A stretch of DNA of 64,000 nucleotides, taken from Mustelus asterias. Taxonomy: Eukaryota. The DNA is taken from contig NC_135810.1 of the NCBI RefSeq assembly GCF_964213995.1, positions 86,056,001 through 86,120,000 of the forward strand. Reading direction: 5' to 3'. The notes under the pieces were generated by a model. That model was not told the origin of the DNA and made no database searches. It worked only from the letters and a program-made list of their open reading frames with translations. Both the position numbers and the translations under genes were made by a program. This document shows, in pieces, positions 1,560 to 45,063 of the stretch; positions within the stretch are counted from its first letter, which is position 1; each line of letters opens with the position of its first letter.

Positions 1560-2410
1560 ACCTGTCCTGCAGTAAGACATCCCTACTTCTGAACTCAAAT
1601 CCTTTTGCAATGAAAGCCAACATACCATTTGCTTTCCTAAATGCTTGCTGCACCTGCCTCTCCACTTTCATTGGCTGGTGTACAAAGACAACCAGATCCA
1701 CACTTCCCAATATATGACCATTTAAATAAGATTCTTCCTTTCTGCTTTTCACACCAAAGTGAATACCTTCACATTTAGCTATGTTGTACTACATATCCAT
1801 GTGTTTGTCCATTCACTCAACTTGTCTAAATCATCTTGAAGACTCCTTTCATACTCCTCACAATTCCACCTAGTTTTGTGTCATCAGCAAACTTAGAAAT
1901 GTTACATTTTGTTCCCTCATCCAGGTTATTTATATATATATCATGAACAATTGGGGCCCAAGCACTTATTCCTGTGGTACTCCACTAGTCACTGCCTGCC
2001 ACTTGGAAAAATACTCATTTATTCCTACTCTCTGCTTCCTGTCTTGCCATGATGTGGAGATGCCGGTGTTGGACTGGGGTAAATACAGTAAGAAGTCTCA
2101 CAACACCAGGTTAAAGTACAACAGGTTTATTTGGTAGCAAAAGCCACTAGTAAAAGAAAACTCGTAAAAGAAAGCTAGTGGCTTTTGCTACCAAATAAAC
2201 CTGTTGGACTTTAACCTGGTGTTGTGAGACTTCTTACCCTGTCTTGCCACCCAATTCTCAATTCATGCCAATACATTACTCCCAATCTCACATGCTTTAA
2301 ATTGCCCACTAACCTCTTCATTCCAGTAGATTTGTTAAGCATGATTTGGCTTTCATAAACCCATGCTGGCTTTGTCCAATCTCATTAATGCTTTCCAAAT
2401 GTTATCAATT
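1560..2410 (-). mobile_element. Degenerate CR1 RT fragment, interrupted by a Penelope-derived insertion
   Basis: Minus strand encodes VTSGVPQ, KFADDTKLGG and KANGMLAFIAKGFEF motifs with frameshifts. Confidence 0.85.
2050..2237 (-). mobile_element. Penelope-derived short fold-back insertion with 12-bp TSD
   Basis: TSD CCTGTCTTGCCA at 2038-2049 and 2238-2249; inverted arms 2088-2150 / 2175-2237; sequence matches the 3' end of the Penelope copy at 4749-5235. Confidence 0.85.
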
Positions 2411-4748: not shown

Positions 4749-5235
4749 GATTCAGCCTCTGATCTTCAGGTAAGCATTCTCCAAGGCGGCCTTCACGACA
4801 CACAACGCAGAGTCGCTGAGCAGAAACTGATAGCCAAGCTCCGCACACATGAGGACGGCCTCAACCGGGATCTTGGGTTCATGTCACACTATCAGTAACC
4901 CCCATGACTTGCCTGGACTTGCAAAATCTCACTAACTTTCCTGTCTGGAAACAATCCACATCTTTTAACCGGTGCCTAATGCTCTCTCCACTCACATTGT
5001 CTGTATCTTTAAGACTTGATTAGCTGTAAAGACTCACATTCCAATAATTATTCATGTAAATTGAGTTTGTGTCTTTGTGCCCTGTTTGTGATCAGAACTC
5101 CCACCCACCTGACGCAGGAACAGCATTCCGAAAGCTAGTGGCTTTTGCTACCAAATAACCCTGTTGGACTTTAACCTGGTGTTGTTAGACTTCTTACTGT
5201 GTTTACCCCAGTCCAACGCCAGCATCTCCACATCA
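4749..5235 (+). mobile_element. Penelope-like element 3' fragment (GIY-YIG C-terminus and pLTR with degenerate hammerhead)
   Basis: Encodes ...RRVAEQKLIAKLRTHEDGLNRDLGFMSHYQ*; hammerhead-like CTGACGCA-GGAA..TTCC-GAAA at 5105-5141; homologous to 32521-33015. Confidence 0.85.
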
Positions 5236-9465: not shown

Positions 9466-11364
9466 ATAGCCTGTCTTGCCATTCAGCAGCCTCAGTGACT
9501 GCCTCCGCACTGTTTCCAGAGGTGGCAGGCTCGACTCCAGCATCTCCCATCCCAGAAACAAAAATCCGGCTGGTCGGGAAAGTTTCTCCCAAGTTGGGTT
9601 TCTTTCGTCGGGAAATTTCCCAACTCTGCGTACCTGACTTGGGAATGAAAATTCGGGCCATAATATCCGACTGGGTATCCCTGATAATTTGTTCATATCT
9701 GCTTTGATCCACACTCCCTGGCAGCCTTTTAACTCACTGGCAGCTTTTCTACCTATGAAAAAGAATACATCATCAAGCTCCTCTTTAATGCGAACTCACA
9801 TTCCTCTAACAGATCAATCACACTCACAGCTACTCCAGAACCTCCTCACCTTGTACCTTGTTCCCAGCAGAGTGTCTCCTTTAGCAGCCATCTTTGTGGT
9901 TCAAGGTTGTGGGCTAGAGCCTATGATGCACACGGTATAAAGCACACTTGATGGTGCATCACCAGGCCTGACCATTTCATGCTGCACCATCTCTCCAGCC
10001 AAATCTTCCATCTCTCCAGCCAATTATTATAGAGACATCCTGAGGGCAAGGATAACCTGAAAATTCACTTCACATCATGAACAAGCTCTTCAAAAGATCT
10101 TCTCCAGCCAATTGACTGTATATGTGAAGCTCAAGGATACCTTTGTTTCCCAATTGAAGCCATCTGGAGGCCTCTGCCCCCTCCCCTTCCTAACTCCTAT
10201 CAACTCGAACCTTTCCCTAAGCCCACCTGAGTTTTCGCCACATTCATTTTTTCCACCTTTCTGTTTGCTTGATTTTTCCACTCAAGCAATTTATTCTTGG
10301 ATTTATGTTTGTTGTCATTGCCAATCTTTCCAATGCCTCAGGTAAGTTAACCCTCCCCACTTCCAGTCTGGTTCAGTGCAAAGTGACAGCCATTTCCACA
10401 GCCATTCTGGTTATATGGGTTGGTATGGAAAGTCTTTCAAATTGCATCAAAAAGTTTACATCGGACACCTAAATTTACAGGTGAAAAACTGCTGAACAAA
10501 ATTAGTAAAGAAGGTTAACACATTAAAAATGTAATTTACTTCAGGAAAAAGTGACATTAGAGGATCCACAAGCTGCCTGAAGGTGAAATGTATTTGTAAA
10601 ATGCACATTGCGAATATGGTTAAGGAGTGAACCTGTCTGGAATTTTGGCACATGTCCTTAGATGTACTGATGGTAATTACTTTGCCTCTTGTACTTTAGT
10701 ATTCCTTAACTATTAATACACTGTAATAGTTTTAACTTTCATTGTTTTGAAGAAGCAACAGATACTGAAAATATCATGACATGGCCCTATTTTGAGAACT
10801 AGATGTTTCAAACTGAGTGTTTGCCAAACAGCAGCTTGTTGCTTTTCAGAAAATAGAACATTTTTCGAAGTTATCTATAAAGCTCCAGCATTAAATTGAA
10901 TCACCTATCCAATTTGCAGTTTGTCTTTATTTCAAGACAACCAATACAATCTAATGAAAACTGTTATATCCTTTCTGACTGGGTTAAAGTTTGTTCAAAT
11001 TGGAATAATTTCACATGCTCATTGATATGGATGATTTGAAAAAAGGTCAGGTACTATATCAGTTACTAATCCAATTCATACAGCCTTGCTTTCAATGAAC
11101 TGTCCATCAGTTACAGGGATATATTTGTTTAAAGGTTCAATCTCATTTTTCTTTCTTGCAGGTTGTCCCAGAGGAAGGCCTATAACGCTGATAATTCCAT
11201 TTAGAAACTGTTGACTGAGTGAACGAGTTTGAATTTTTACTGATTGGAATGTCAAGTCGAAGTGTTGTTGAACCAACTTAACACTTCAGTTCTCGAATAA
11301 CCTTCTTTACTATCTGCAACTAATATTGCTCTACTGTAAGTTTCATTTCACTCAATATTTTTTA

Positions 11365-11585
11365 ATCGCTCAGGGCATGTGGGCGTCAGTGGCTGGGCCA
11401 GCATTTTATTACTCATCCTTTCCTTGATTTCCAAGGGCATTTTAGAGTTAACCACATTGCTGCGGATTTGGAGTTACATGTAAGCCAGACCAGGTAAGGA
11501 TGGCAGATTTCTCTCCCTAAAGATTTCACCATCTGCCACGGTGGGATTTGAACAGGTGTCCCTGGATCTTGTTCTGGGTCTCTGG
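11365..11585 (-). mobile_element. Deu-domain SINE (SacSINE1-like), internally deleted
   Basis: Minus strand has GAAATCTGCCATCCTTACCTGGTCTGG...ACATGT..CTCC, the Deu core, plus a tail shared with the CR1-like LINE at 33060-33150. Confidence 0.65.
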
Positions 11586-11862
11586 AAGACAATATAAACA
11601 GAATTCCATCTGCATTCAGATAGCCCAGGACCATGATTACTTACAATGAATGCTGACTAATACTTCTGCAAACAGATGCAAGGTAGCTAGCATGAATTAC
11701 ACTCCACCTGTACAGGGATCAAGATCAGAATAATCTACTAAATACAGTTCCAAACAAGCTGAACATTCTCATTTACCGACTTGCTTCTGTTAATATTGAA
11801 ATGCTTCAGTGACTAGAGTCTGGCAATTACATATCATGCCACAAGCATGACAGTAAATATTT

Positions 11863-12076
11863 TAAGAAGTTTAACAACACCAGGTTAAAGTCCAACAGGT
11901 TTATTTGGTAGCAAAAGCCACACAAGCTTTCGGAGCTCCAAGCCCCTTCTTCAGGTGAGTCAGGAGCTCCGAAAGCTTGTGTGGCTTTTGCTACCAAATA
12001 AACCTGTTGGACTTTAACCTGGTGTTGTTAAACTTCTTACTGTGTTTACCCCAGTCCAACGCCGGCATCTCCACAT
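11863..12076 (+). mobile_element. Penelope-derived fold-back insertion with ~13-15-bp TSD
   Basis: TSD CAGTAAATATTTT(AA) at 11851 and 12077; perfect 77-bp inverted arms 11863-11939 / 11963-12039 with a 23-nt loop. Confidence 0.88.
11920..11957 (-). ncRNA. Minimal type I hammerhead ribozyme motif (Penelope type)
   Basis: Minus strand: CAC-CUGAAGA-A-GGGGC uugga GCUCC-GAAA-GC-UU-GUG. Confidence 0.65.
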
Positions 12077-12207
12077 CAGTAAATATTTTAACAACAATTG
12101 GATAAAAGGAATAATTGTTGCTCCCTTGGTGTGCTAAGAAAATGCTTGTATTGGTCAGGCGTGTTCTGACACACAGTAAATTAAAACACAGATTTCACAA
12201 GCCAAAC

Positions 12208-12213
12208 TTTATT
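12208..12213 (-). terminator. Probable MICU2 polyadenylation signal (AATAAA), giving a ~1 kb 3' UTR
   Basis: TTTATT on plus, followed on minus by GU/U-rich TGTGAAATCTGTGTTTTAATTTACTGTGTGT. Other AATAAA copies lie at 12838-12843 and 13043-13048. Confidence 0.6.
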
Positions 12214-13236
12214 AATGCGAGAGAAACAGTCCAGATTTAATACAGATACAGCTCCAGAATTTGATGAAATTATCGTATTCCTTAAATATTCCGAACATCT
12301 AAAAAGTAGTTAGGGTTGAAGATGCACAAGCCGGATAAATTACCTCCAACGTTATAATGTATTGTAGAATTTTACACCTCAGACGAATTGATCATTTTAA
12401 AAAAGTAATATTTTTGTCTTAGATTTTTAAAGTATATTTGTACACAATAAATTGAAATAACATTCAAAGAAGTCCCTGAATATTTTGTTGCATTGCATTG
12501 AAGCAGTGCAGATTAAATATTTTCTGGGAGAAAGGTTTGTTTGTGTAATGCCACTTCTGGTGGTCCTAGAACTTAGACCTATGTCGATTCCTGGGGACAA
12601 GCAACATTATGGGCCACTCTCGAGCATCCTTCTTTGAATGATATCAATGAAGAACATTGTCCAGGTAGAGGCATGTGGTCTTGCTTACCCCGAGGAACAG
12701 AAGTAAGTCTGTGCACTGGAAGCAGCGCTATGCAAACACATTTCTCACTTTGCCTTACTTATGAGCATTTCTGAATAATTGTAACCAAAAAACACAACAT
12801 GTAATTGATTAAAAGGATCGAATTTTAATAACATTATTTTATTCAGTGCATTGCCTTCAGAAAAAGTGCTGGATAAAACTCTTTGGTGGAACAAAAAGGC
12901 AAGATACCATTTTCAGAATTATGTCACAGATAAGTGATATGACAGTATGTTGTGAAGTGTCCAAATCATTGCATTACAGTATAAGCATGTAAATAAATGA
13001 GAAAAGACTTGTCAACATTCATTTTCATGAAGGCAATGTTGCTTTATTTTTGTCGAAATACACTTTGTATATGTAAAGAGGACATATTTATGACATTTCG
13101 TTAAATTCTGGACACTTTCTAACCCTAGATATTTTGCAGTTTAAAAAAAAATCCACTGTGACAAAATTTCCCCAACGAGCTATCTCTTGTAAAGCATTGG
13201 ATGATTTTATGTACGAAGACCTTGTGCTCAGTAGTA

Positions 13237-13341
13237 TTAACAAGGGCTGCTTCCGGTCTGCTTCCAGGCTTCATGAACTCCAACAATAGTCTCCTTCTTC
13301 ACACATTTAAAAAAGCCATTGAAACCATGTTGTGTTGGTGC
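13237..13341 (-). CDS. MICU2: MICU2 terminal coding exon (C-terminal helix and stop), 105 bp
   Basis: tttcaacag|GCA CCA...TGT TAA; encodes APTQHGFNGFFKCVKKETIVGVHEAWKQTGSSPC*, similar to human VPQHQSIQEYWKCVKKESIKGVKEVWKQAGKGLF. The KCVKKE cysteine used for the MICU1 disulfide is conserved. Confidence 0.95.
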   Translation of the reverse strand, partial: APTQHGFNGFFKCVKKETIVGVHEAWKQTGSSPC

Positions 13342-13387
13342 CTGTTGAAACCAAAGTATTGAGTCTCTGTTACTGTGAATAGACATA

Positions 13388-14640
13388 GGGGCCGATTTTA
13401 CCAAATCGGCTCTCAGTGTCGGGTGCGATCGTAAATCAGATCCGCGCCCAGCAGCCGCGCTCCAGCACCCCCATACGCCTTTTTTCGGCGCGGGTCCAGT
13501 GGACGGGGCCTAGCGCATTTGCATCTGTCAGAGCACTGAACTGCGCATGCTCAGTTCGGAGCCGACAGCACAGCGCGCACAGGTGCGAAAGTCAAAGGCA
13601 GCGCTGACAGCACTGCTGTCTGCGCTGCCTTTGACTTTCCCTGGTGTGGGGGGGGGGGGGGGGGGGGGAGAATGTGACGGCTCTTCCCTGAGTGGGGGGG
13701 GGGGGGGAATCTGACGTCTCTTCCCTGAGGGGGGGGGGGTGGGTGGGATGTGACGTCTCTTCCCTGAGGGGGGGGGATGTGACGGCTCTTCCCTGGGGGG
13801 GGGGGATGTGACGGCTCTTCCCTGGGGGGGTGGGGGGTGGGATGTGACGGCTCTTCCCTGGGGGGAGGGGGATGTGACGTCTCTTCCCTGAGGGAGGGGT
13901 AGTGGGGGGGAAGTGATGTCTCTTCCCTGGGGGGGAGGGGGGGGGGGTGGGGGGGGATGTGACGTCTCTTCCCTGAGGTGGGGGGGGGGGAATGTGACGT
14001 CTCCGCTCCCCCCCCCAGGGGCAGAGACGTCACATCTCCCCCTACCCCCCCCCCCCCCTCAGGGAAGAGGCATCACATCCCCCCCCCCACCCCTCAGGGA
14101 AGAGATGTCACATCCCCCCTAACCCCCCCCCCCCCCCTCAGGGACGAGATGTCACATCCCCCCTACCCGCCCCCCCCTCAGGGAAGAGATGTTACATTCC
14201 CCCGCCCGCCCCCCCGCAGTGAAGAGACGTCATCCTACACAAGGCCAGGATCCAGGATCGCAAGATGCTTTCGACGGACACCAGCGATCAAGGTAGGTCG
14301 GGGGCCCAGGGGGGTCTGTTCCCAGGGGGGGGGGGCGTTGCTGGAGGGGCCTGCGTCCCAGGGTGGTCCGATCCGGGGCGGGGGGGGGCTGCCGGGGTGG
14401 TTCGTGGGGGCGGTCCGCGAAGGGTGGTCGGGGGTGATTCGGGCGGTTCGGACTTGAATTCAGCAACACTGTAAATGCGCGGGCGCTGATCGGATCAGAG
14501 CCTCGTAAAGTGGGAATCCTTGGGTAAGTTGGGCGCGGGCTTCATTATGCCGATTTAAATGCATGCAAATGCATTTAAATCGGCCCGCTGGCCGATTCGG
14601 GCGCCGCCGGATTGACGCCCGGATCTTTTCCATTCCTTAA
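13388..14640. mobile_element. GC-rich non-autonomous DNA element (Harbinger-like GGG terminus) carrying an inverted minisatellite
   Basis: Left end GGGGCCGATTTTACCAAA resembles the reverse complement of the right end of 42678-43721; CpG-rich; right terminus not found. Confidence 0.5.
13670..14233. repeat. Head-to-head minisatellite: ATGTGACG(T/G)CTCTTCCCTG separated by G-runs, then inverted copies separated by C-runs
   Basis: About 10 forward units (13672-14003) and 6 inverted units (14016-14233). Confidence 0.92.
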
Positions 14641-32520: not shown

Positions 32521-33015
32521 GACTGTTCTCGTCCTGTGGGGGAGCACTTCAGCAGTCATGGGCATTCAGCCTTGGATCTTCAGGTAAGCGTTCTCCAAGG
32601 CGGCCTTCACGACACACGACAGCGCAGAGTCGCTGAGCAGAAACTGATAGCCAAGTTCCGCACACATGAGGACGGCCTAAACCGGGATGTTGGATTTATG
32701 TCACATTATCAGTAACCCCCACAGCTTGCCCCTGGTCTTGCATAATCTCACCAGCTGTTCTGTCTGGAGACAATACACATCTCTTTAACCTGTGTTTAAT
32801 GTTCCCTCCAACCACATTATCTGTACCTTTTAAGACCTGGCTGGCTGTAGAGATTTGCATTCTAATTAGTATTCTGTAACTTGATTTCTGTGTCTGTGCA
32901 CTGTTGGAGAACAGAGACCACTCCATCTGACGAAGGAGCAGCAAGCTCCGAAAGCTTATGGTATTTGCTACCAAATAAACCTGTTGGACTTCAACCTGGT
33001 GTTGTGAGACTTCTT
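32521..33015 (+). mobile_element. Penelope-like element 3' fragment
   Basis: Encodes PVGEHFSSHGHSALDLQVSVLQGGLHDTRQRRVAEQKLIAKFRTHEDGLNRDVGFMSHYQ* (GIY-YIG C-terminus) followed by pLTR. Confidence 0.88.
32923..32961 (+). ncRNA. Minimal type I hammerhead ribozyme motif (Penelope type)
   Basis: CCAU-CUGACGA-A-GGAGC agcaa GCUCC-GAAA-GC-UU-AUGG, with perfect stems I and II and palindromic AAGCUU. Confidence 0.75.
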
Positions 33016-34309
33016 ATTGTGGGTCAACCCACAGCACAAGGACTGCAGTGATTCTTGAAGGCAGCTCACCACCACCTTCTCAAGGGCAACTAGTGATGGG
33101 CAATAAATGTTGGCCAGCCAGTGACGCCCATATTCCACAAATGAATAAAAACAATCTACAAGATTCACTGCAACAATTCACCAAGGCTAGTTCAACATCA
33201 CATTCCAAATCCACAACCTCTACTACCAAGAAGGACAAGGGCAGCCCATGCATGGGAACACCAGCACCTGCAAGTTCCCCACAAGCGACACACTGTTGTG
33301 ATTTGGAACTATATCACTGTTCCTTTACTGTCACTGGATACAAATCCTGGAACTCCCTTCCGAACAGCACTGTGGGTGTACCTACACCACGTGGATTGCA
33401 CCAGTTCAAGAAGAAGGCTCACCATAGGAATGGGCAACAAACTCTGGCCCAACCAGTGATGCCCACATTTCAGACCTGGTAGGAGCTTTGTTGTTGAACA
33501 ATCACTGGCGCTTATCATCCACATTGAGACTGGCTGCCAATCCATGCTCAAGACATGTGTTGCACTTGCTAACCTTTCATTAGCGTATGAAATTGTGTGA
33601 CAACATAGTTTCTTGTTGAAAGCTGCCAGGCTTTTCCAATGCCTGGTTTCAATGCTGAGACCAAACAAGCTCCACAAGGTTTCTAAATGATAAACTTCCC
33701 AAGGCTCTGTATTAGCTCCAATCCCCTTCAACAACATGCCTCCCACAACCTCTGGAAAGTTTACATGTGAAGATGATCCAGCCCTTGCTATCCAGGCAGC
33801 AGATCTCAGCAATACCTCGTCCGAGGACTTAGAACAGCAATGTTTCAACGACTGGCATCTCCCCTTAAATTCAACTAAGGCCATGTCACTGCTTTCCATC
33901 CCCACAACCAACTGGCTAATAGTAAACTCCAGGTGTCCTCTTCTGGAAAAGAATGATCCATATCCCAAATACCTTGGAGTGACCATGGACAGCAACCTCA
34001 TGCAGCAGGAAAACCTGAAAACCAGAGTAAACTAGCAGGCACCAGCTTGGGATCCAGTGTACACATTCTTCATACTGTTAGCCTTGTTCTTGTATACTCT
34101 TCAGCAGGATACTGCTCCTCTGTGTGGGCAGAAAGCAGCCACGCAAAACACTTGGACACTGCCAGAGACAGAATTTCATGTAGTTCCTTGATTTTCCATA
34201 ATTTTACCTTTTGTCCCAGTGAGGACATCGCAGAGATTGTGCTCCAGTCTTTGGCTTTCCTATACTTTGTTGGTATGAATGAGGCTAATTAAACAACTTG
34301 GACCAGGTT

Positions 34310-38276: not shown

Positions 38277-39254
38277 AAATTGACTGTTGTGCATACCTGC
38301 ACCCTAACTCTGCAACTGAACTGGAGTGTTTTGGAATGTCCTGAGGTTGTACTTGCTGCTGTGTAAATACAAACTTTTCTTCATCTTCTTTCAAGTTGCC
38401 CACCAGACTTCAGAAAAAGAATTCTCATCTGCTTACCAGCTCAGTGCAATACATCCTAAAATAGGTATCATTTGTGTGCAGCAACTGCCAGCTGCAATGC
38501 TCGTGTCTGTCCATGCAGTCCTCCTTTACACATTTTAAAATTATTAATGGAAAATGCTAGTTCTAATTCAACATGTGTTAGGAATATGATACACAATGGG
38601 GAACAATGAGTTTATGGGAATATGTCATGAGTTTGGTCTGTAACTCATTCATGCCATGCCTGTGGCAGTCAAGTCATTAGACCCATCATCACTTTCCGCT
38701 TAATGTTCTTGTAAATCACATTTCTTACTGGGCGTCCCTTACATAATTAAAGTGAAGGTTCAAATTAAACTTTATCTGTACAAGTTGGTGTACCAGTTAC
38801 AACTCCCATTTAACTTAACAAATAGCTCCGTGTAGCATAGCTAACTTTGCAACAAGTGTTTTAATAACAAAATATAACCTTCATTTCAATTTTGCTGTGA
38901 ATGCCAACAGGCTAATCACTTATGGACAGATGCTATGCCCAACCTTAGCCTCTCCAGACATTCACATGTGCAGTTCCCACCAGGAAAAACAATAAGAAAC
39001 AGGATCCAATAGTGATTTTCTCCCCCATTCCTCGTCCAGGGTACTGAGGGCAGTCAGTACAGTGTCCTTGCTGATGCTTTAGCTGAGATTAGTCAACTCA
39101 ATACAGACTAGGAATTGAACTTTCCAGTCTGTGTGGCTCAGAGTAACATCATGCACTGTCCTTTATCCCCCAAGTTATTCTTTGCGTATACTGGAAACTT
39201 TTATTTATTTTGTTACCAAGCTTGAGTCATTGCAGTCTGATCAAAGATTAAACA

Positions 39255-39571
39255 GGGCGGCACGGTGACACAGCGGTTAGCACTGCTGCTTCACAGCGCC
39301 AGAGACCCGGGTTCAATTCCGGCCTTGGATCACTGTCTGTGTGGAGTTTGCACTTTCTCCCCATGTCTGAGAGAGTTTCCTCCGAATGCTCCGGTTTCTT
39401 CCCACAGTCCAAAGATGTGCAGGTTAGGTTGATTGGTCATGCTAAATTGCCCATTGGTGTAGGGGGGATTACGTGGGGTTATGGGGATATGGCTGGGTGG
39501 GATTATTGTCGGTGCAGGCTTGATGGGTCAAATGGCCTCCTTCTGTACTGTAGGAATTCTATAATTCTATG
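39255..39571 (+). mobile_element. HE1-like SINE with CR1-type tail
   Basis: Complete head and AATTCTATAATTCTATG tail. Confidence 0.9.
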
Positions 39572-39682
39572 AAATAAGTTTGAAAAATTAAAATTCAACA
39601 ACAAAAGGATGTTGAAAAACAAAGGAACGTAGCTCCTTGTATAACTCAAGTGTGTTTATTTAGTTAGTGGTTGAATGACACA

Positions 39683-40045
39683 AACCAGCCTCCCACCCAT
39701 TGACTCTGTCTACACTTACTGCTGCCTCGGAAAAGCAGCCAGCATAATTAAAGACCCCACGCACCCCGGACATTCTGTCTTCCACCTTGTTCCGTCGGGA
39801 AAAAGATACAAAAGTCTGAGGTCATGAGCCAACTGACTCAAGAGCAGCTTCTTCCCTGCTGCCATCAGACTTTTGAATGGACCAACCTTGCACTAAGTTG
39901 ATTTTTCTCCACACCCTAACACTACATTCTGCACTCTCTTGTTTCCTTCTCTATGAATGGCATGCTTTGTATAACACGCAAGAAGCAATACTTTTCACTG
40001 TATACTAACACATGTGACAATAATAAATCTAATCAAATCAAATCA
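39683..40045 (+). mobile_element. Rex1/Babar LINE 3' end
   Basis: Encodes CLGKAASIIKDPTHPGHSVFHLVPSGKRYKSL...LKSSFFPAAIRLLN; ends TGTGACAATAATAAA(TCAAA)n. Confidence 0.8.
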
Positions 40046-40289
40046 TATTAAGCAGGTCAGTGCTATGTTCATCCACAGTCTGTACTGAGCTAACTATTCT
40101 CAACTTGGTAGCAATAGATGTGCTAAAATTAATTCAAATGCCCCAAATTGGGGAGAAGAGGGAAGCTCAACCATTGTTCTCTTTCTTAATTATCCAGCAA
40201 TGTCTCCAGTAAATGCATGCCCAGACAGTGGGTCAACTGAAGGTTCAGTTTGACTGTGAACATAGGAATAGGAATGTCTTTGACATTCT

Positions 40290-41480
40290 TGAGGGCTGTT
40301 TGGCTAGTCAACAAGATGATGGATGATTTACGAACTACTCCATGCAATTGCCTTTGCCTGACATCCCTTAAATACCTTTGATTAACAAAAAATCCATCAA
40401 TCTCAGATTTAAAGTTCACATCTGATCTAGTATCAATTGGTGTTTGCAGAAGAGACTTCCAAACTTTTATTAGATTTGCTGTGTAAGAATCTTCCTAATT
40501 TCAGTCATAAAAAGTCTGGTTCTAATCTGGCTATGATTTTTAGAGAATGTCCCCTAAGCTTAAGGGTAAAATACCGCGGATGCTGGAATCTGAAACAAAA
40601 ACAGAAAATGCTGGAGAAACTCAGCAGATCTGACAGCATCTGTGGCGAGAGAATCGAGCCAACGTTTCGAGCCTGGATGACCCTTCGTCAGCTCTGTCCC
40701 CTAGTCTTAGATTCCCCATCCAACTGAAATTGGATATCTTGAAAACCTTGATCAAATCATTCCTTAAACTTTTAAATTCCTTGCAACCTTGGTTTAGAAC
40801 ATAGAACATTACAGCGCAGTACAGGCCCTTCGGCCCTCGATGTTGCGCCGACCTGTGAAGCCAATCTAAAGCCCATCTAACCTACACTATTATAGAACAT
40901 TTGTGTAATCTCTCTTCATAACCTTGGAGTCCTCATACCCATTAATCTAGTAATATCGGTATATATTGAGCTTTCATCTACACTGCTTATGGTGCCACTT
41001 TTATGTTGTTGGTAGAGATGGATATGTGGTGCTCTACCCCATCATCAAAATCATTAATAAATACTGTGAATAGTTAAGTCCGTAATACAACTCATTGCGG
41101 GTCATGACTAGCCACATCCTGCCACTTAGAGTACCTGCCTATTATCCCTACTCCTTCTGCTTAGACTATTTCCTAATCAGGTCAATAATCTGTCTTTAAA
41201 TTCATGAGCTTCAACTTCAATTAACATTCTTTTCCAATGGATTTTATTAAATGTCTTCCAGAGGTTCATATAAATAGAATCCATGGACATTCTTCTATCT
41301 ACTAATTACCTCTTCAAAAAATTCAACCAGGTTCATCAAGCATGATCTATCCTTATAAATCCACACTGGCTCTCTCTGATCTGCTGAACATTTTCAATGA
41401 GTTCAGTTCTTAATTATGAAGTCCAATAATTTCCTGACAAAGATGTTCGGCTAACTGGTCTATGATTCTCTGGTTTCACG
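40290..41480 (-). mobile_element. Cluster of old CR1 fragments with small nested insertions
   Basis: Minus strand NFKSEIDGF and RNDLIKVFKI motifs plus YRPVS-type RT start near 41460; a young CR1 tail at 40795-40890 is flanked by TAGAACAT. Confidence 0.65.
40565..40694 (-). mobile_element. Penelope pLTR fragment with imperfect hammerhead core
   Basis: Minus strand CUGACGA-A-GGGUC..GGCUC-GAAA-CG-UU; TGTCCCCTA repeated at 40548 and 40695 as a TSD. Confidence 0.65.
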
Positions 41481-42524
41481 CTCACTTTTCTTAACTGAAA
41501 ATTAAAAATGAACATGAAGATTTTACACTGTTGAATCTCAGATCCGAATAATGGCTACTTGGTGAGGTATCTTGTCTTAAAATTGTACCCAAGCAACAAG
41601 GAGCCAAAACCTTCAGGAGAGGAGAAAAATTAAGAAAATGATGAGCAAAAAAGTACACATCTTTTTTAGGTGACGTAGGATTATACAATTGACAAGCAAT
41701 GCCTGAGGCACTAATTTCACCTTTCAGGGCTACCACATAGTTACTATCAGTGACGCTGGAATGTTTGCTTAAGTTAGCTTTCTTCACTTATGGTGCAAAC
41801 CGTAATTTGAAATGTTCAAACATTCACCACACAGCCTTGACAAGTTGCCACAGCCATTTTATTTGTTAGCCCCAATGGGTGGCACACCCAAGTGAAAAGT
41901 CTGTTGCCATTGTCCTGTGACAGAGGGAACAGCTACTGTGGTAAGTACGGTCTGTCTTTCCATCACCAGTATTACTGAGACAACAAAATGTTCTTTCACA
42001 CCAGCCAAACATTCATCACCCAGTACAACAGATGACTCTTTCCCACTGCAAGTGAAAAGTGCAGATTAAGTACATGGCAGAAGCACAAAGGTTTACCCAA
42101 GTGGCAAGTATGATAACAGATTACCCCTGCTAATGATTTTACACCTGTCAGTTGGTTCACTTAATTTACTCTTGTTACCCTCAGTGGGGATATCCATTCC
42201 CCCTTGTTGCTTTTTCTTGTAATAAACAGGAAGAAGCTCTCATAAACAGTAGAAAAACTGCCATTTGGGAATTTAAACTGTCAGATTATCTGCAATGTAA
42301 CCAAATATTTTGAACAGCAGTATTTTAAATTAATCCCAATCCTTGGTTTATTCTGAAATATGATTTCTTCTTCACCATGTTAGTTTATTTTCCTATTAAG
42401 CATTCATTGTTCGCATCTCTTTTCTTCCTTTATTTTGCTGCAAGCATCCCTTTCCCTGCAAATTTTATTTTCTGAATTTTACAGAATTCCTTCCCGAATT
42501 GAATGAACTCCCTTCAGGTCATTG

Positions 42525-42666
42525 CGCTTAAGGGCATTTAAATGGTCATTGGATAAACATATGGATGATATTGGAATAGTGTAGGTTAGATGGGCTTTAG
42601 ATTGGTTTCACTGGTCGGCGCAACATCGAGGGCCGAAGGGCCTGTACTGTGCTGTAATGTTCTATG
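42525..42666 (+). mobile_element. Short young CR1 3' end
   Basis: GGCGCAACATCGAGGGCCGAAGGGCCTGTACTG...TTCTATG; GTCATTG repeated at both flanks. Confidence 0.8.
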
Positions 42667-42677
42667 TCATTGTCCAA

Positions 42678-43721
42678 GGGCAAAACCTTGAGCCCGTGTT
42701 TGCCATCTACAAGGTTGCCGGTGGGGGCTCAAGATCCGGAAGTCACAGTTCTCGCCGGTGAGATTTTGGATCTTCCCCGTCTCTCACTGGTGACGTCATC
42801 AGGTTGATGCCCATAATGGGTGTGAACCTGCTCTGTGTGCACCAACATGCATTTTAATACCCACCCTCTATGCTGTATCTTGATCCCCCTCCAGGTACTG
42901 ACACCACACTGATGTAATGTCATGTTGGCGCAGTTCACGACAAGTTCACAAAGATGTGAACCTGTCGTGGGGATCCCCCGGGGGTGTAAAGGTATGTATA
43001 GCCCTCGGGGTAAAGGGACATGGCCAGGCAGTGCCCTGGCAATGTCCCTTGGCACAGGTTGGCATTGCCAGGTGGGCACCATGCCACACTGGCGGTGTCA
43101 ACCTGTGCCAAGGGGCGGGTCCCAGTAGAAGCTTCAGTGGGGGGGTGGGGTGGTTAATTCTGCTGTGCTTGTTGGGCTTGAGGCCCAACAATGAGGGGAT
43201 GCCGGCTCTGACTGTGGGAGGGAAATGGCTGAGGGTTGCATTGGGATGTGGGGAAAAGAGAGAGAAAAGGCAGAGGATTGTGTGGGGATGGGGGGGAAAG
43301 AAAGAAGGGGCTGATGATCGCTGGAGGGTAGAGGGAAGCGGCCGATGATTGTGATGTGGCGGGGGGGGGGGGGGGAGGGAGAAGAGGGAGGGGGGGTCTA
43401 AGTGGATGCTGGCTCCGATTGGGGGTGTGTGGAGGGAGCCCCTAGACCTCAGTGATGGCGTCGGGTGGGGGGAGGAGGGGTTTTATTGGAGTTTTGATCG
43501 GGGCGCCCTTTAAAGATGACACCCCAGTCTTTGAGCAGCCAGGTTTTGCTGGTGTGTTTAAGCCTCATCCACCTCGATGATGGCATGATTCACGACCCCT
43601 TGACATTTGTTTTGGAAGATTCTGGTCAAATCTGGAGAAAAAACTGACCTGTTTACTGGAGAGAAACGTGTCGGTTTTCTCACCAGAAACAACGCTTCCA
43701 GTTTTTGGTAAGATTTTTCCC
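42678..43721. mobile_element. Non-autonomous PIF/Harbinger-type element with 3-bp TSD
   Basis: Ends GGGCAAAACCTT / AAGATTTTTCCC (10/12 inverted match); CAA on both sides (42675-42677, 43722-43724). Confidence 0.7.
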
Positions 43722-44740
43722 CAAGGGTTTCAAATCAGAATACAAACAGATCAATTGCAGAGGGACAAAGCATTGTGATCTTAGGTATGATTACTCTGGT
43801 TCAGGGAGTTTCTTAATGTTGCCCTTAGCATTCCCACCCCGGAAACAAATCAGTGAACAACTAGTTCTTTAACCTTTACCGCTGGTAACTAATAGCTGGA
43901 AGTTATTTTAGAAAGATGGGCCTTACAATTTGTGTCTAATAATCTCCCACAGTCCTCATGCTTAAGACTTCTTTCATTTCACAACTATCGTACCTCATGG
44001 TCTTCAGACAATATATCCTTATTGTAAAATGTCATTACTTACCTTCTGACAATTATACATGTCTGTATGGCTCATCAGTCAGCTACTTTCAAAACACACA
44101 GGCACTTTGATCAATAGCCAACAATGATTTCCTGTGTGTGGTGAAGTGTTTTGCAGAAAGATCAGATAAAATCACATTTTTCCATTAAGAAGAACTAGAA
44201 AGATGATTTGGTTGATTTACCAACAAATACAATTTGGGTGAAAAGTGATATCTGAAGCAAGGTAAAAATCACACTGACCCTTTTATCTTCTGTATAAATG
44301 TGCAAAACCAGATTTACTGCCAAGTAACAAACTTTCAAGCGGTTTTAATGGAGTGATCAAAAGCACATACCTTAACCATAAAGACAATGCACAACTCCCT
44401 CATTGTACTCAAACACCTACCAATGTTGAAAAATTATCTGCATTAGACCATAAAAACAGGACCTACAGCTTTCAACAGTCAGACGTGGGAGTCTAAGTTC
44501 AATTAAAGTTTTCTATCTCTGTGGTAGGCAGGGGAGCTCTTACCCACCAAAGTTTCTAAACACATTAATGTGCTGCCGTGTCACATCTTATTGGTCCTGC
44601 TTGTTCAAAGAGTTGCGAAACATGTCAGATAGTCGAGGTTTACATTTAAGAATAGAATGTGTAAAGCAGAGGAAACTTTGTACTGCAGGTCACGGTGTTC
44701 TAGAGAGCAGCTAATGAGCAGAATGGATGAGTTTCTTTAC

Positions 44741-44832
44741 CTGTAAAAGTCTTTGTATTGCAGCTTCAGCTCCCCTCCTTTCCCAAAGAAGTGCACCAGC
44801 AGGGTTGTGTTCATTCCTTTGCTACCTTTCTG
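44741..44832 (-). CDS. MICU2: MICU2 coding exon (equivalent to human exon 8), 92 bp
   Basis: Minus strand reads ctttgtag|CAG...TTTTACAG|gtaaag and encodes QKGSKGMNTTLLVHFFGKGGELKLQYKDFY(R), matching the MICU2/3 motif NTTL..FFGK.G..KL.Y..F.R. Ends in phase 2, compatible with the next exon. Confidence 0.93.
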
Positions 44833-45063
44833 CTACAAAGACAGAAATAGATCATTAGCCTGCTTAACTGCAGTGCTCCGAAAAGCTGGCCAATCACAGG
44901 GAACGCGTAAACAATCTCTAAAACCAAAATGCAACAGCAATTGCTGTGTTACAATTCAAAATGACAAAGCACAGCTGATGTTGCACGGTTCAAGGGCATA
45001 ATTGATAATGCTTCAATCAGTTGTGGAACACGGTTACTGAACTGATAACTTGCTGCTGTAAGA

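What the first reader, a model, noticed from the sequence alone, without database searches (positions are those of the whole stretch)
11851..12091. Penelope-derived fold-back retro-insertion placing a hammerhead core just past the MICU2 poly(A) signal
Seen: a ~215-bp insertion with a 13-15-bp TSD, perfect 77-bp inverted arms and a complete minimal hammerhead core on the minus (MICU2-sense) strand, starting ~130 bp beyond the probable AATAAA. Known: Penelope pLTRs carry minimal hammerheads that may cleave as dimers, and inverted pLTR structures occur. Inference: MICU2 read-through RNA would contain either a self-cleaving motif (possible termination aid) or a long dsRNA stem that sequesters it (ADAR/Dicer substrate). 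Perfect arms suggest a very recent, possibly polymorphic insertion.
Basis: partly seen in the sequence, partly recalled or inferred. Interest (0 to 1): 0.7.

Follow-up and report, generated by a model that had tools for sequence, protein, structure and literature searches.

The report
Ordinary Penelope fold-back behind MICU2
This hairpin is a young mirror-image stub of a very common jumping gene that landed just past the MICU2 gene; its tiny ribozyme motif is predicted to be locked in the hairpin and likely does nothing for MICU2, but its junction likely records where the jumping gene's RNA begins.

Summary
In detail: 77-bp perfect inverted arms, an 11-15-bp target duplication, a minimal hammerhead motif on the MICU2-sense strand, 130 bp past an AATAAA. 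It is a head-to-head stub of a Penelope-like retroelement (RT ORF found; Neptune-type linker) with about 39,000-45,000 arms in this 3.7-Gb genome and an estimated 3,600 equally tight fold-backs, so about ten should lie this close behind some gene by chance. Two other runs (at least one a related species) carry the empty site; no empty allele was seen in one run of the species itself. A role in MICU2 termination is not supported: the upstream arm is transcribed first and is predicted to trap the hammerhead (26-36 kcal/mol), no second core is present, and spliced contigs of three studies stop near the AATAAA (weak hint). What is of interest is family-wide: short arms stop at a boundary 29 bases behind a TATA-like box and often carry an extra G there, as this copy does, which likely marks a capped RNA start copied after internal priming. 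The scan already noted that boundary elsewhere in this genome. Verdict: real, ordinary, low interest.

The parts
11851..11865 (+). Left copy of the target-site duplication (11-15 bp; holds an 8-bp palindrome)
   Evidence: single copy at the empty site in runs X6 and X14 (table 8)
11863..11960 (-). Inverted, tail-less arm: element positions +1 to +98, carrying the whole hammerhead motif and the element's AATAAA (11905-11900)
   Evidence: other copies continue past 11960 with the parent's upstream sequence (table 7)
11921..11957 (-). Minimal type I hammerhead motif (3-bp stem I, 5-bp stem II, palindromic AAGCUU in place of stem III); predicted cut between 11924 and 11923
   Evidence: compared with the consensus features in PMC4209133
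11961..11962 (-). Two junction letters (TG on the minus strand) found in neither parent position; the G is the proposed cap-copied base
11963..12039 (+). Second arm: element positions +22 to +98; holds only the 3' half of the hammerhead
12040..12078 (+). One-sided tail (37-39 bp), element positions +99 to +137, ending at the A of the parent ORF's start codon
   Evidence: tail described in PMC8557442 and PMC11167929
12077..12091 (+). Right copy of the target-site duplication
12208..12213 (-). Probable distal MICU2 poly(A) signal (AATAAA), followed by U/GU-rich sequence
   Evidence: spliced contigs stop at 12272, 12218 and 12196 (weak hint)
12190..13343 (-). MICU2 last exon: coding end 13343-13237 and 3' UTR; lower bound inferred

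Best explanation
It is a young head-to-head stub of an abundant Penelope-like retroelement, likely inert and likely sitting behind MICU2 by chance. Shown: two arms of the same element end, one with and one without a tail, inside a target duplication; both arms run through the predicted ribozyme cut, so their template was uncut RNA; family arms end at two clusters 35-40 bases apart. Inferred: the element's enzyme cut both target strands and primed one cDNA from each, at the two internal start points near the 5' end of its own mRNA; the tail-less cDNA ran off the capped start (+1), gained a C opposite the cap and one more base by snapping back; the tailed cDNA stopped at +22; the two ends were joined. 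In MICU2 read-through RNA the first arm would pair with the hammerhead's 3' half before a partner core could, so no cleavage is expected.
For: Parent ORF of 915 codons with RVT_1 (E 4e-10). 26,537 and 44,592 exact matches to two short motifs; 29 head-to-head and 0 tail-to-tail pairs among the first 100 places, 8 as tight as this one. Arm 3' ends: 167 of 334 at +96 to +106 and 151 of 334 at +133 to +139, like the two RT start sites shown in vitro for the anole element, which cuts and extends both strands and uses uncut RNA (PMC11167929). Empty site bridged by single contigs in X6 and X14. Hammerhead pairs have probability below 0.0001 in 5 of 5 read-through lengths; forcing them costs 26-36 kcal/mol, against 8 without the upstream arm and 2 for the core alone. 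A single minimal hammerhead showed no cleavage in vitro (PMC4209133). Chance expectation: about 53 genes with a sense hammerhead motif and 10 with a tight fold-back within 500 bp, assuming 20,000 genes. For the capped start: G before +1 in 802 copies against 452 for A and T together; TATA-like box at -29 in 46 of 54 copies with upstream sequence; of 85 partner arms 6 reach upstream of -2 and 72 start at +1 or later.
Against: No experiment and no raw reads. Nascent RNA across the insert was not testable. The pile-up of 5' ends at +1 is broad, not sharp: estimated true junctions 944 at -2, 1194 at -1, 975 at +1, 565 at +5, at most 354 per base from -3 to -13. G is also common at +5 (9 of 18 after three parent-like rows are set aside, 10 of 21 before), where arm microhomology supplies it. 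Letter estimates for solo copies rest on 30 loci per class from two chromosomes. The partner-arm sample was chosen for one arm near +1, allowed partners only to about -100 and may count a few loci twice. A full hairpin followed by a 16-bp central deletion gives the same junction as two joined cDNAs. Pfam did not detect the GIY-YIG domain.
Confidence: 0.82

Rival explanations
1. The hammerhead cuts MICU2 read-through RNA (alone, or as a dimer with another element RNA) and helps polymerase II terminate.
For: Complete core on the sense strand about 284 bases past the AATAAA; the core alone folds its two stems (P 0.76-0.92); element RNA is present in a spliced run of this species, so a partner in trans could exist; the anole ribozyme cuts when its protein is present.
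Against: Upstream arm is made first and traps the core; no second core in cis; monomers inactive in vitro; relatives end MICU2 contigs at about the same place and the sampled relatives lack the insert; placement expected by chance. Recalled, not checked: a 5'-OH end is a poor entry for the XRN2 torpedo.
Confidence: 0.03
2. The 77-bp duplex in read-through or alternatively polyadenylated MICU2 RNA is edited by ADAR or diced and thereby affects MICU2.
For: Perfect 77-bp stem; AATAAA inside the insert and another at 11410-11405 could end a longer 3' UTR.
Against: Spliced contigs of three studies stop at 12196-12272, before the insert (weak hint); about 3,600 like hairpins exist, so editing or dicing would not be special to this site.
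Confidence: 0.08
3. The fold-back arose by self-priming on an antisense template or by DNA hairpin repair, with no link to a capped RNA start; the extra G is microhomology or arm-derived.
For: Self-priming on an antisense template was proposed for palindromic Penelope junctions (PMC3846280); tight junctions with varied centres occur all along the element; G is frequent at +5 too.
Against: Extra G is commonest where no arm can supply it: an estimated 67% of solo copies starting at +1 against 0 of 8 at -2 and 2 of 8 at +1; partner arms respect an upstream boundary; the one-sided tail fits two priming sites. This rival concerns only the junction, not the verdict of inertness.
Confidence: 0.3

Closest known systems
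Insertions of endonuclease-positive Penelope-like elements with an inverted 5'-truncated copy, one-sided 30-40-bp tail and target duplication (PMC8557442, passages; PMC3846280, passages and Discussion)
   Same: Head-to-head arms, tail on one arm only, duplication, hammerhead in the terminal repeat, palindromic junction.
   Different: No ORF left; whole insert is 213 bp; junction carries two non-parent letters at the presumed RNA start.
PAc (Poseidon of Anolis carolinensis), internal initiation at two sites (PMC11167929, parts 1-2 of 4 read)
   Same: Two 3'-end clusters a tail apart; both target strands used; uncut RNA as template; AT-rich target.
   Different: Here the ORF starts at the end of the tail (+137), not in stem II, and the linker is of Neptune/Nematis type; nothing was tested in vitro.
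Minimal hammerheads of metazoan PLEs (PMC4209133, parts 1-2 of 4 read)
   Same: CUGANGA and GAAA boxes, extra base before stem II, G10.1-C11.1, palindrome in place of stem III; opposite-strand pairs 100-700 bp apart were already noted there.
   Different: Only one whole core here, and it lies half inside a 77-bp duplex; stem I is 3 bp.
Extra G at 5' junctions of full-length L1-mediated insertions, attributed to the mRNA cap (PMC11702581 and PMC2831318, passages)
   Same: A non-parent G before a defined first base.
   Different: Described for L1; here in a Penelope-like element and on copies only 100-140 bases long.

Membership tests
Endonuclease-positive Penelope-like element (Neptune/Nematis type) | Single ORF with reverse transcriptase in the parent element | tested here: met
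   L272 open frame of 915 codons, RVT_1 E 4e-10, upstream of the same terminal sequence
Endonuclease-positive Penelope-like element (Neptune/Nematis type) | C-terminal GIY-YIG endonuclease | tested here: inconclusive
   No Pfam hit; motif seen by eye (VYLIRC...YIGET); Atlas feature hits 0.95-0.97, PF01541 on 31% of members of one cluster set (a lead)
Endonuclease-positive Penelope-like element (Neptune/Nematis type) | CX2-5CxxC linker between RT and EN | tested here: met
   CHSNLCKTC in the parent ORF; definition from PMC8557442
Endonuclease-positive Penelope-like element (Neptune/Nematis type) | Inverted 5'-truncated copy with a 30-40-bp tail on one side, and target duplication | tested here: met
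Endonuclease-positive Penelope-like element (Neptune/Nematis type) | RT phylogeny places it in a named clade | not tested
   No reference PLE RT set was at hand; clade label rests on the linker only
Minimal type I hammerhead of PLEs | Core boxes, extra base between 9 and 10.1, G10.1-C11.1, palindrome at 15.2-16.2 | tested here: met
   against PMC4209133
Minimal type I hammerhead of PLEs | Can adopt the hammerhead fold in its transcript context | tested here: not met
   Predicted only: P below 0.0001 in read-through RNA, 26-36 kcal/mol penalty
Minimal type I hammerhead of PLEs | Self-cleavage as a dimer | not testable with these tools
   needs an in vitro assay
microRNA precursor (mir-548, mir-607 models) | Reaches the Rfam gathering score | tested here: not met
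   66 of 90 bits and 56 of 94 bits; matches reflect pairing, not sequence
Independent miniature inverted element or tandem retrozyme | Fixed internal structure copied as a unit, or tandem direct repeats | tested here: not met
   Centres and arm lengths differ from copy to copy; arms are ends of the RT element

The most novel reading that the evidence does not exclude
This family's short stubs are fossils of internal priming at the 5' end of the element's own capped mRNA: a TATA/initiator promoter starts the RNA three bases before the hammerhead, reverse transcription from both target strands runs off the cap, copies it as an extra G, and the new cDNA end snaps back or joins its twin. That would explain head-to-head Penelope palindromes without an antisense template and map the element's start site from genome sequence alone.
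Probability: 0.5. Interest if true: 0.45.

Novelty: new member of a known kind. Interest (0 to 1): 0.2.

Why it matters
The locus itself matters little: it is one of thousands. It would matter if a transposon ribozyme were recruited to end a host gene's transcript, but the evidence runs against that. The family-level junction pattern bears on an open point in Penelope biology, how head-to-head inverted ends form (PMC3846280 left this open and favoured an antisense template), and gives a cheap test: CAGE at one predicted base and a census of extra G's.

Tried and rejected
Rfam scan: no hammerhead family reached E 10; miRNA hits rejected. Sequencing runs: no RNA holder listed; runs X3, X4, X5, X9 were taken as RNA only because all four leave the window at 13343 with the same 30 letters. 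No cover of run X3 in the unique flanks 11587-11832 and 12120-12160: no evidence either way on read-through. Only contigs were available, so editing, small RNAs, strand and RNA ends could not be read. Polymorphism: no empty-site piece among the listed X1 contigs, but contigs drop rare variants, table 8 was cut and it is one sample. My first idea that the TGACTCACC centre is the family's fixed fold-back axis was rejected: it is 447 of about 38,750 copies, and its frequency in the first 30 loci came from the query. A sharp single-base peak of 5' ends at +1 was not found; the peak is broad. A pile-up of arm ends at the ribozyme cut (+38), noted by other reports of the scan, was not seen in my biased sample: 0 of 85 at +38, 4 of 85 at +39 or +40; this does not test it genome-wide. 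Pfam on the endonuclease end gave nothing. The paper on dimer cleavage of PLE hammerheads in RNA Biology (recalled) is not held and was not read. Searches for a printed account of a cap-derived G in Penelope elements and of shark Penelope hammerheads listed none that I could see from titles and abstract starts; I read none of their supplements, and subscription papers are missing, so this is no proof of absence.

Full report
Observation. The described features are all present. Perfect inverted arms of 77 bp lie at 11863-11939 and 11963-12039 around a 23-nt loop, inside a direct repeat of up to 15 bp at 11851 and 12077. Both ends of that repeat also match element sequence, so the real duplication is 11-15 bp. 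The minus strand carries a minimal hammerhead motif at 11957-11921. The nearest upstream coding exon on the minus strand matches MICU2 chains only; its 3' UTR holds AATAAA at 13048, 12843 and 12213, the last 130 bp from the insert.

What it is. The insert has close look-alikes across the genome (3.68 Gb; a shark by inference from a run label and earlier notes): 29 of 29 other loci fetched by similarity are fold-backs too, each with its own centre (this sample is circular, being chosen by the query). Position-ordered samples are not: two short motifs occur 26,537 and 44,592 times, and the first 100 places of the second form 29 head-to-head pairs, no tail-to-tail pair, 8 of them within 130 bp, which extrapolates to about 3,600 tight fold-backs. 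Longer copies run upstream into an ORF; of 9 stretches fetched, one holds a 915-codon frame with a reverse transcriptase (RVT_1, E 4e-10), a CX4CX2C linker and a GIY-YIG-like end. Pfam misses that end; the Atlas gives GIY-YIG as a lead. Inverted 5'-truncated copies with a one-sided 30-40-bp tail are the described insertion form of these elements, and the linker marks Neptune and Nematis types (PMC8557442, passages; PMC3846280, passages and Discussion). Numbering from the A three bases before stem I as +1, the inverted arm spans +1 to +98 and the other arm +22 to +137; +137 is the A of the parent's start codon.

Age. One contig of run X6 (another species, flanks 2.4% diverged) joins 11850 to 12077 and one of run X14 joins 11863 to 12093: the empty site with one copy of the target. 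So the insert is younger than those splits. In run X1 of the species itself the flank contigs pass through both duplicated sites into the insert (11524-11884, 12057-12500) and no empty-site piece is listed; this is one sample and contigs drop variants. Perfect arms are weak dating evidence: P(no change) is 0.16 for the arms and 0.06 for the whole insert even at the age of the split. Each arm also occurs letter for letter in other loci (27 and 11 hits among 279 loci, window copy and overlaps included). Young, yes; polymorphic, not shown.

Effect on MICU2. Four runs that splice out of the window at 13343 give contigs that stop at 12272 (two runs, one sample), 12218 and 12196, with no loose ends there, while DNA runs go on: a weak hint that the mRNA ends near 12190, before the insert, in this species and in two relatives. 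In read-through RNA the tailed arm comes first and pairs with the hammerhead's stem II, GAAA box and cut site. In 5 of 5 lengths tested, from the moment the core is complete, hammerhead pairs have probability below 0.0001 and forcing them costs 26-36 kcal/mol; without the upstream arm the cost is 8. These are equilibrium predictions. The motif lacks stem III and would need a second core; a single motif of this type did not cleave and dimers cleaved poorly (PMC4209133, parts 1-2 of 4), and the anole ribozyme cut only with its protein (PMC11167929, parts 1-2 of 4). With 38,751 copies of the 5' half of the motif, about 53 genes should have one in sense within 500 bp behind their end by chance, and 10 a tight fold-back (assumes 20,000 genes and even spread). 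A termination role gets about 3%, an effect through editing or dicing about 8%.

How it likely formed. Arm 3' ends in 334 sampled arms fall into two clusters, 167 at +96 to +106 and 151 at +133 to +139 (the ruler ends at +139). The anole element starts reverse transcription at two internal sites a tail apart, extends both cut strands and uses uncut RNA. Both arms here cross the predicted cut (+37/+38), so the template was uncut. I infer one cDNA from each target strand, joined head to head. Between the arms stand two letters, TG, before +1, where the parent has CC. Genome-wide, a G before +1 occurs in 802 copies (447 after T, 355 after other letters) against 452 for A and T together. In 30 loci per class, copies without an inverted arm give an estimated 273 G, 60 A and 75 T, several with short extra letters between duplication and +1 that complement the first bases of the element. 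Controls: G in 0 of 8 solo copies at -2 and 2 of 8 at +1, but 3 of 5 at +5, one of which is probably not the element. A TATA-like hexamer starts at -29 in 46 of 54 copies with upstream sequence, and +1 sits in an initiator-like context (consensus recalled). Of 85 partner arms at loci chosen for one arm near +1, 6 reach upstream of -2, 7 end at -2 or -1 and 72 start at +1 or later. An extra G from the cap is reported for full-length L1 insertions (PMC11702581, PMC2831318, passages). Together this suggests a capped start at +1, copied when priming occurs at the 5' repeat of the mRNA, with snap-back from the cap-derived base. Against: the excess of ends is broad (estimated 944, 1194, 975 and 565 at -2, -1, +1, +5; at most 354 per base from -3 to -13), samples are small, and the Drosophila element has a TATA-less internal promoter (PMC2377424, passages), whereas a TATA and initiator were noted in a rotifer element. 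I put this reading at 0.5.

Novelty. The insert is a new member of a known kind. The scan holds 208 notes fitting Penelope hammerhead terms in this genome, several with the same RNA-start reading and some with a rival trace of ribozyme cutting; none lies near this locus. I had written my reading before those look-ups. They are AI notes and count as no support. Supplements of the cited papers were not read and could bear on the claim that the cap signature is not described for Penelope elements.

Noticed in passing
window 2052-2237: Second fold-back of a related subfamily with about 20 bp of unrelated filler at its centre, no hammerhead core left and a 12-13-bp duplication, inside LINE-like sequence.
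   Followed up: no
window 4950-5235 and 32700-33021: Two longer, more diverged 5'-truncated ends of related Penelope-like families on the plus strand, with variant hammerhead motifs.
   Followed up: no
window 40665-40691 (minus): Hammerhead-like motif with a different stem II and an AACGUU palindrome, probably another Penelope-like family.
   Followed up: no
window 11905-11900 (minus): The inserted arm brings an AATAAA in MICU2-sense orientation, inside the stem.
   Followed up: partly
window 11854-11865: The target duplication holds an 8-bp palindrome; earlier notes of the scan report symmetric targets for this family.
   Followed up: partly
G000, loci L031-L309: Stem II of the hammerhead varies between subfamilies (about ten variants of positions +20 to +29) while its paired bases mostly stay compatible (seen by eye).
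   Followed up: no
L271, L273, L274 (G000:C1): Head-to-head inserts of 3-4 kb whose two arms both reach into the RT domain; arms at one locus often stop within a few bases of each other.
   Followed up: partly
window about 13650-14220: G/C-rich tandem array of roughly 35-40-bp units in the last MICU2 intron.
   Followed up: no
window about 11345-11590: Another very high-copy repeat just beyond the insert, with an AATAAA at 11410-11405 on the MICU2-sense strand.
   Followed up: no
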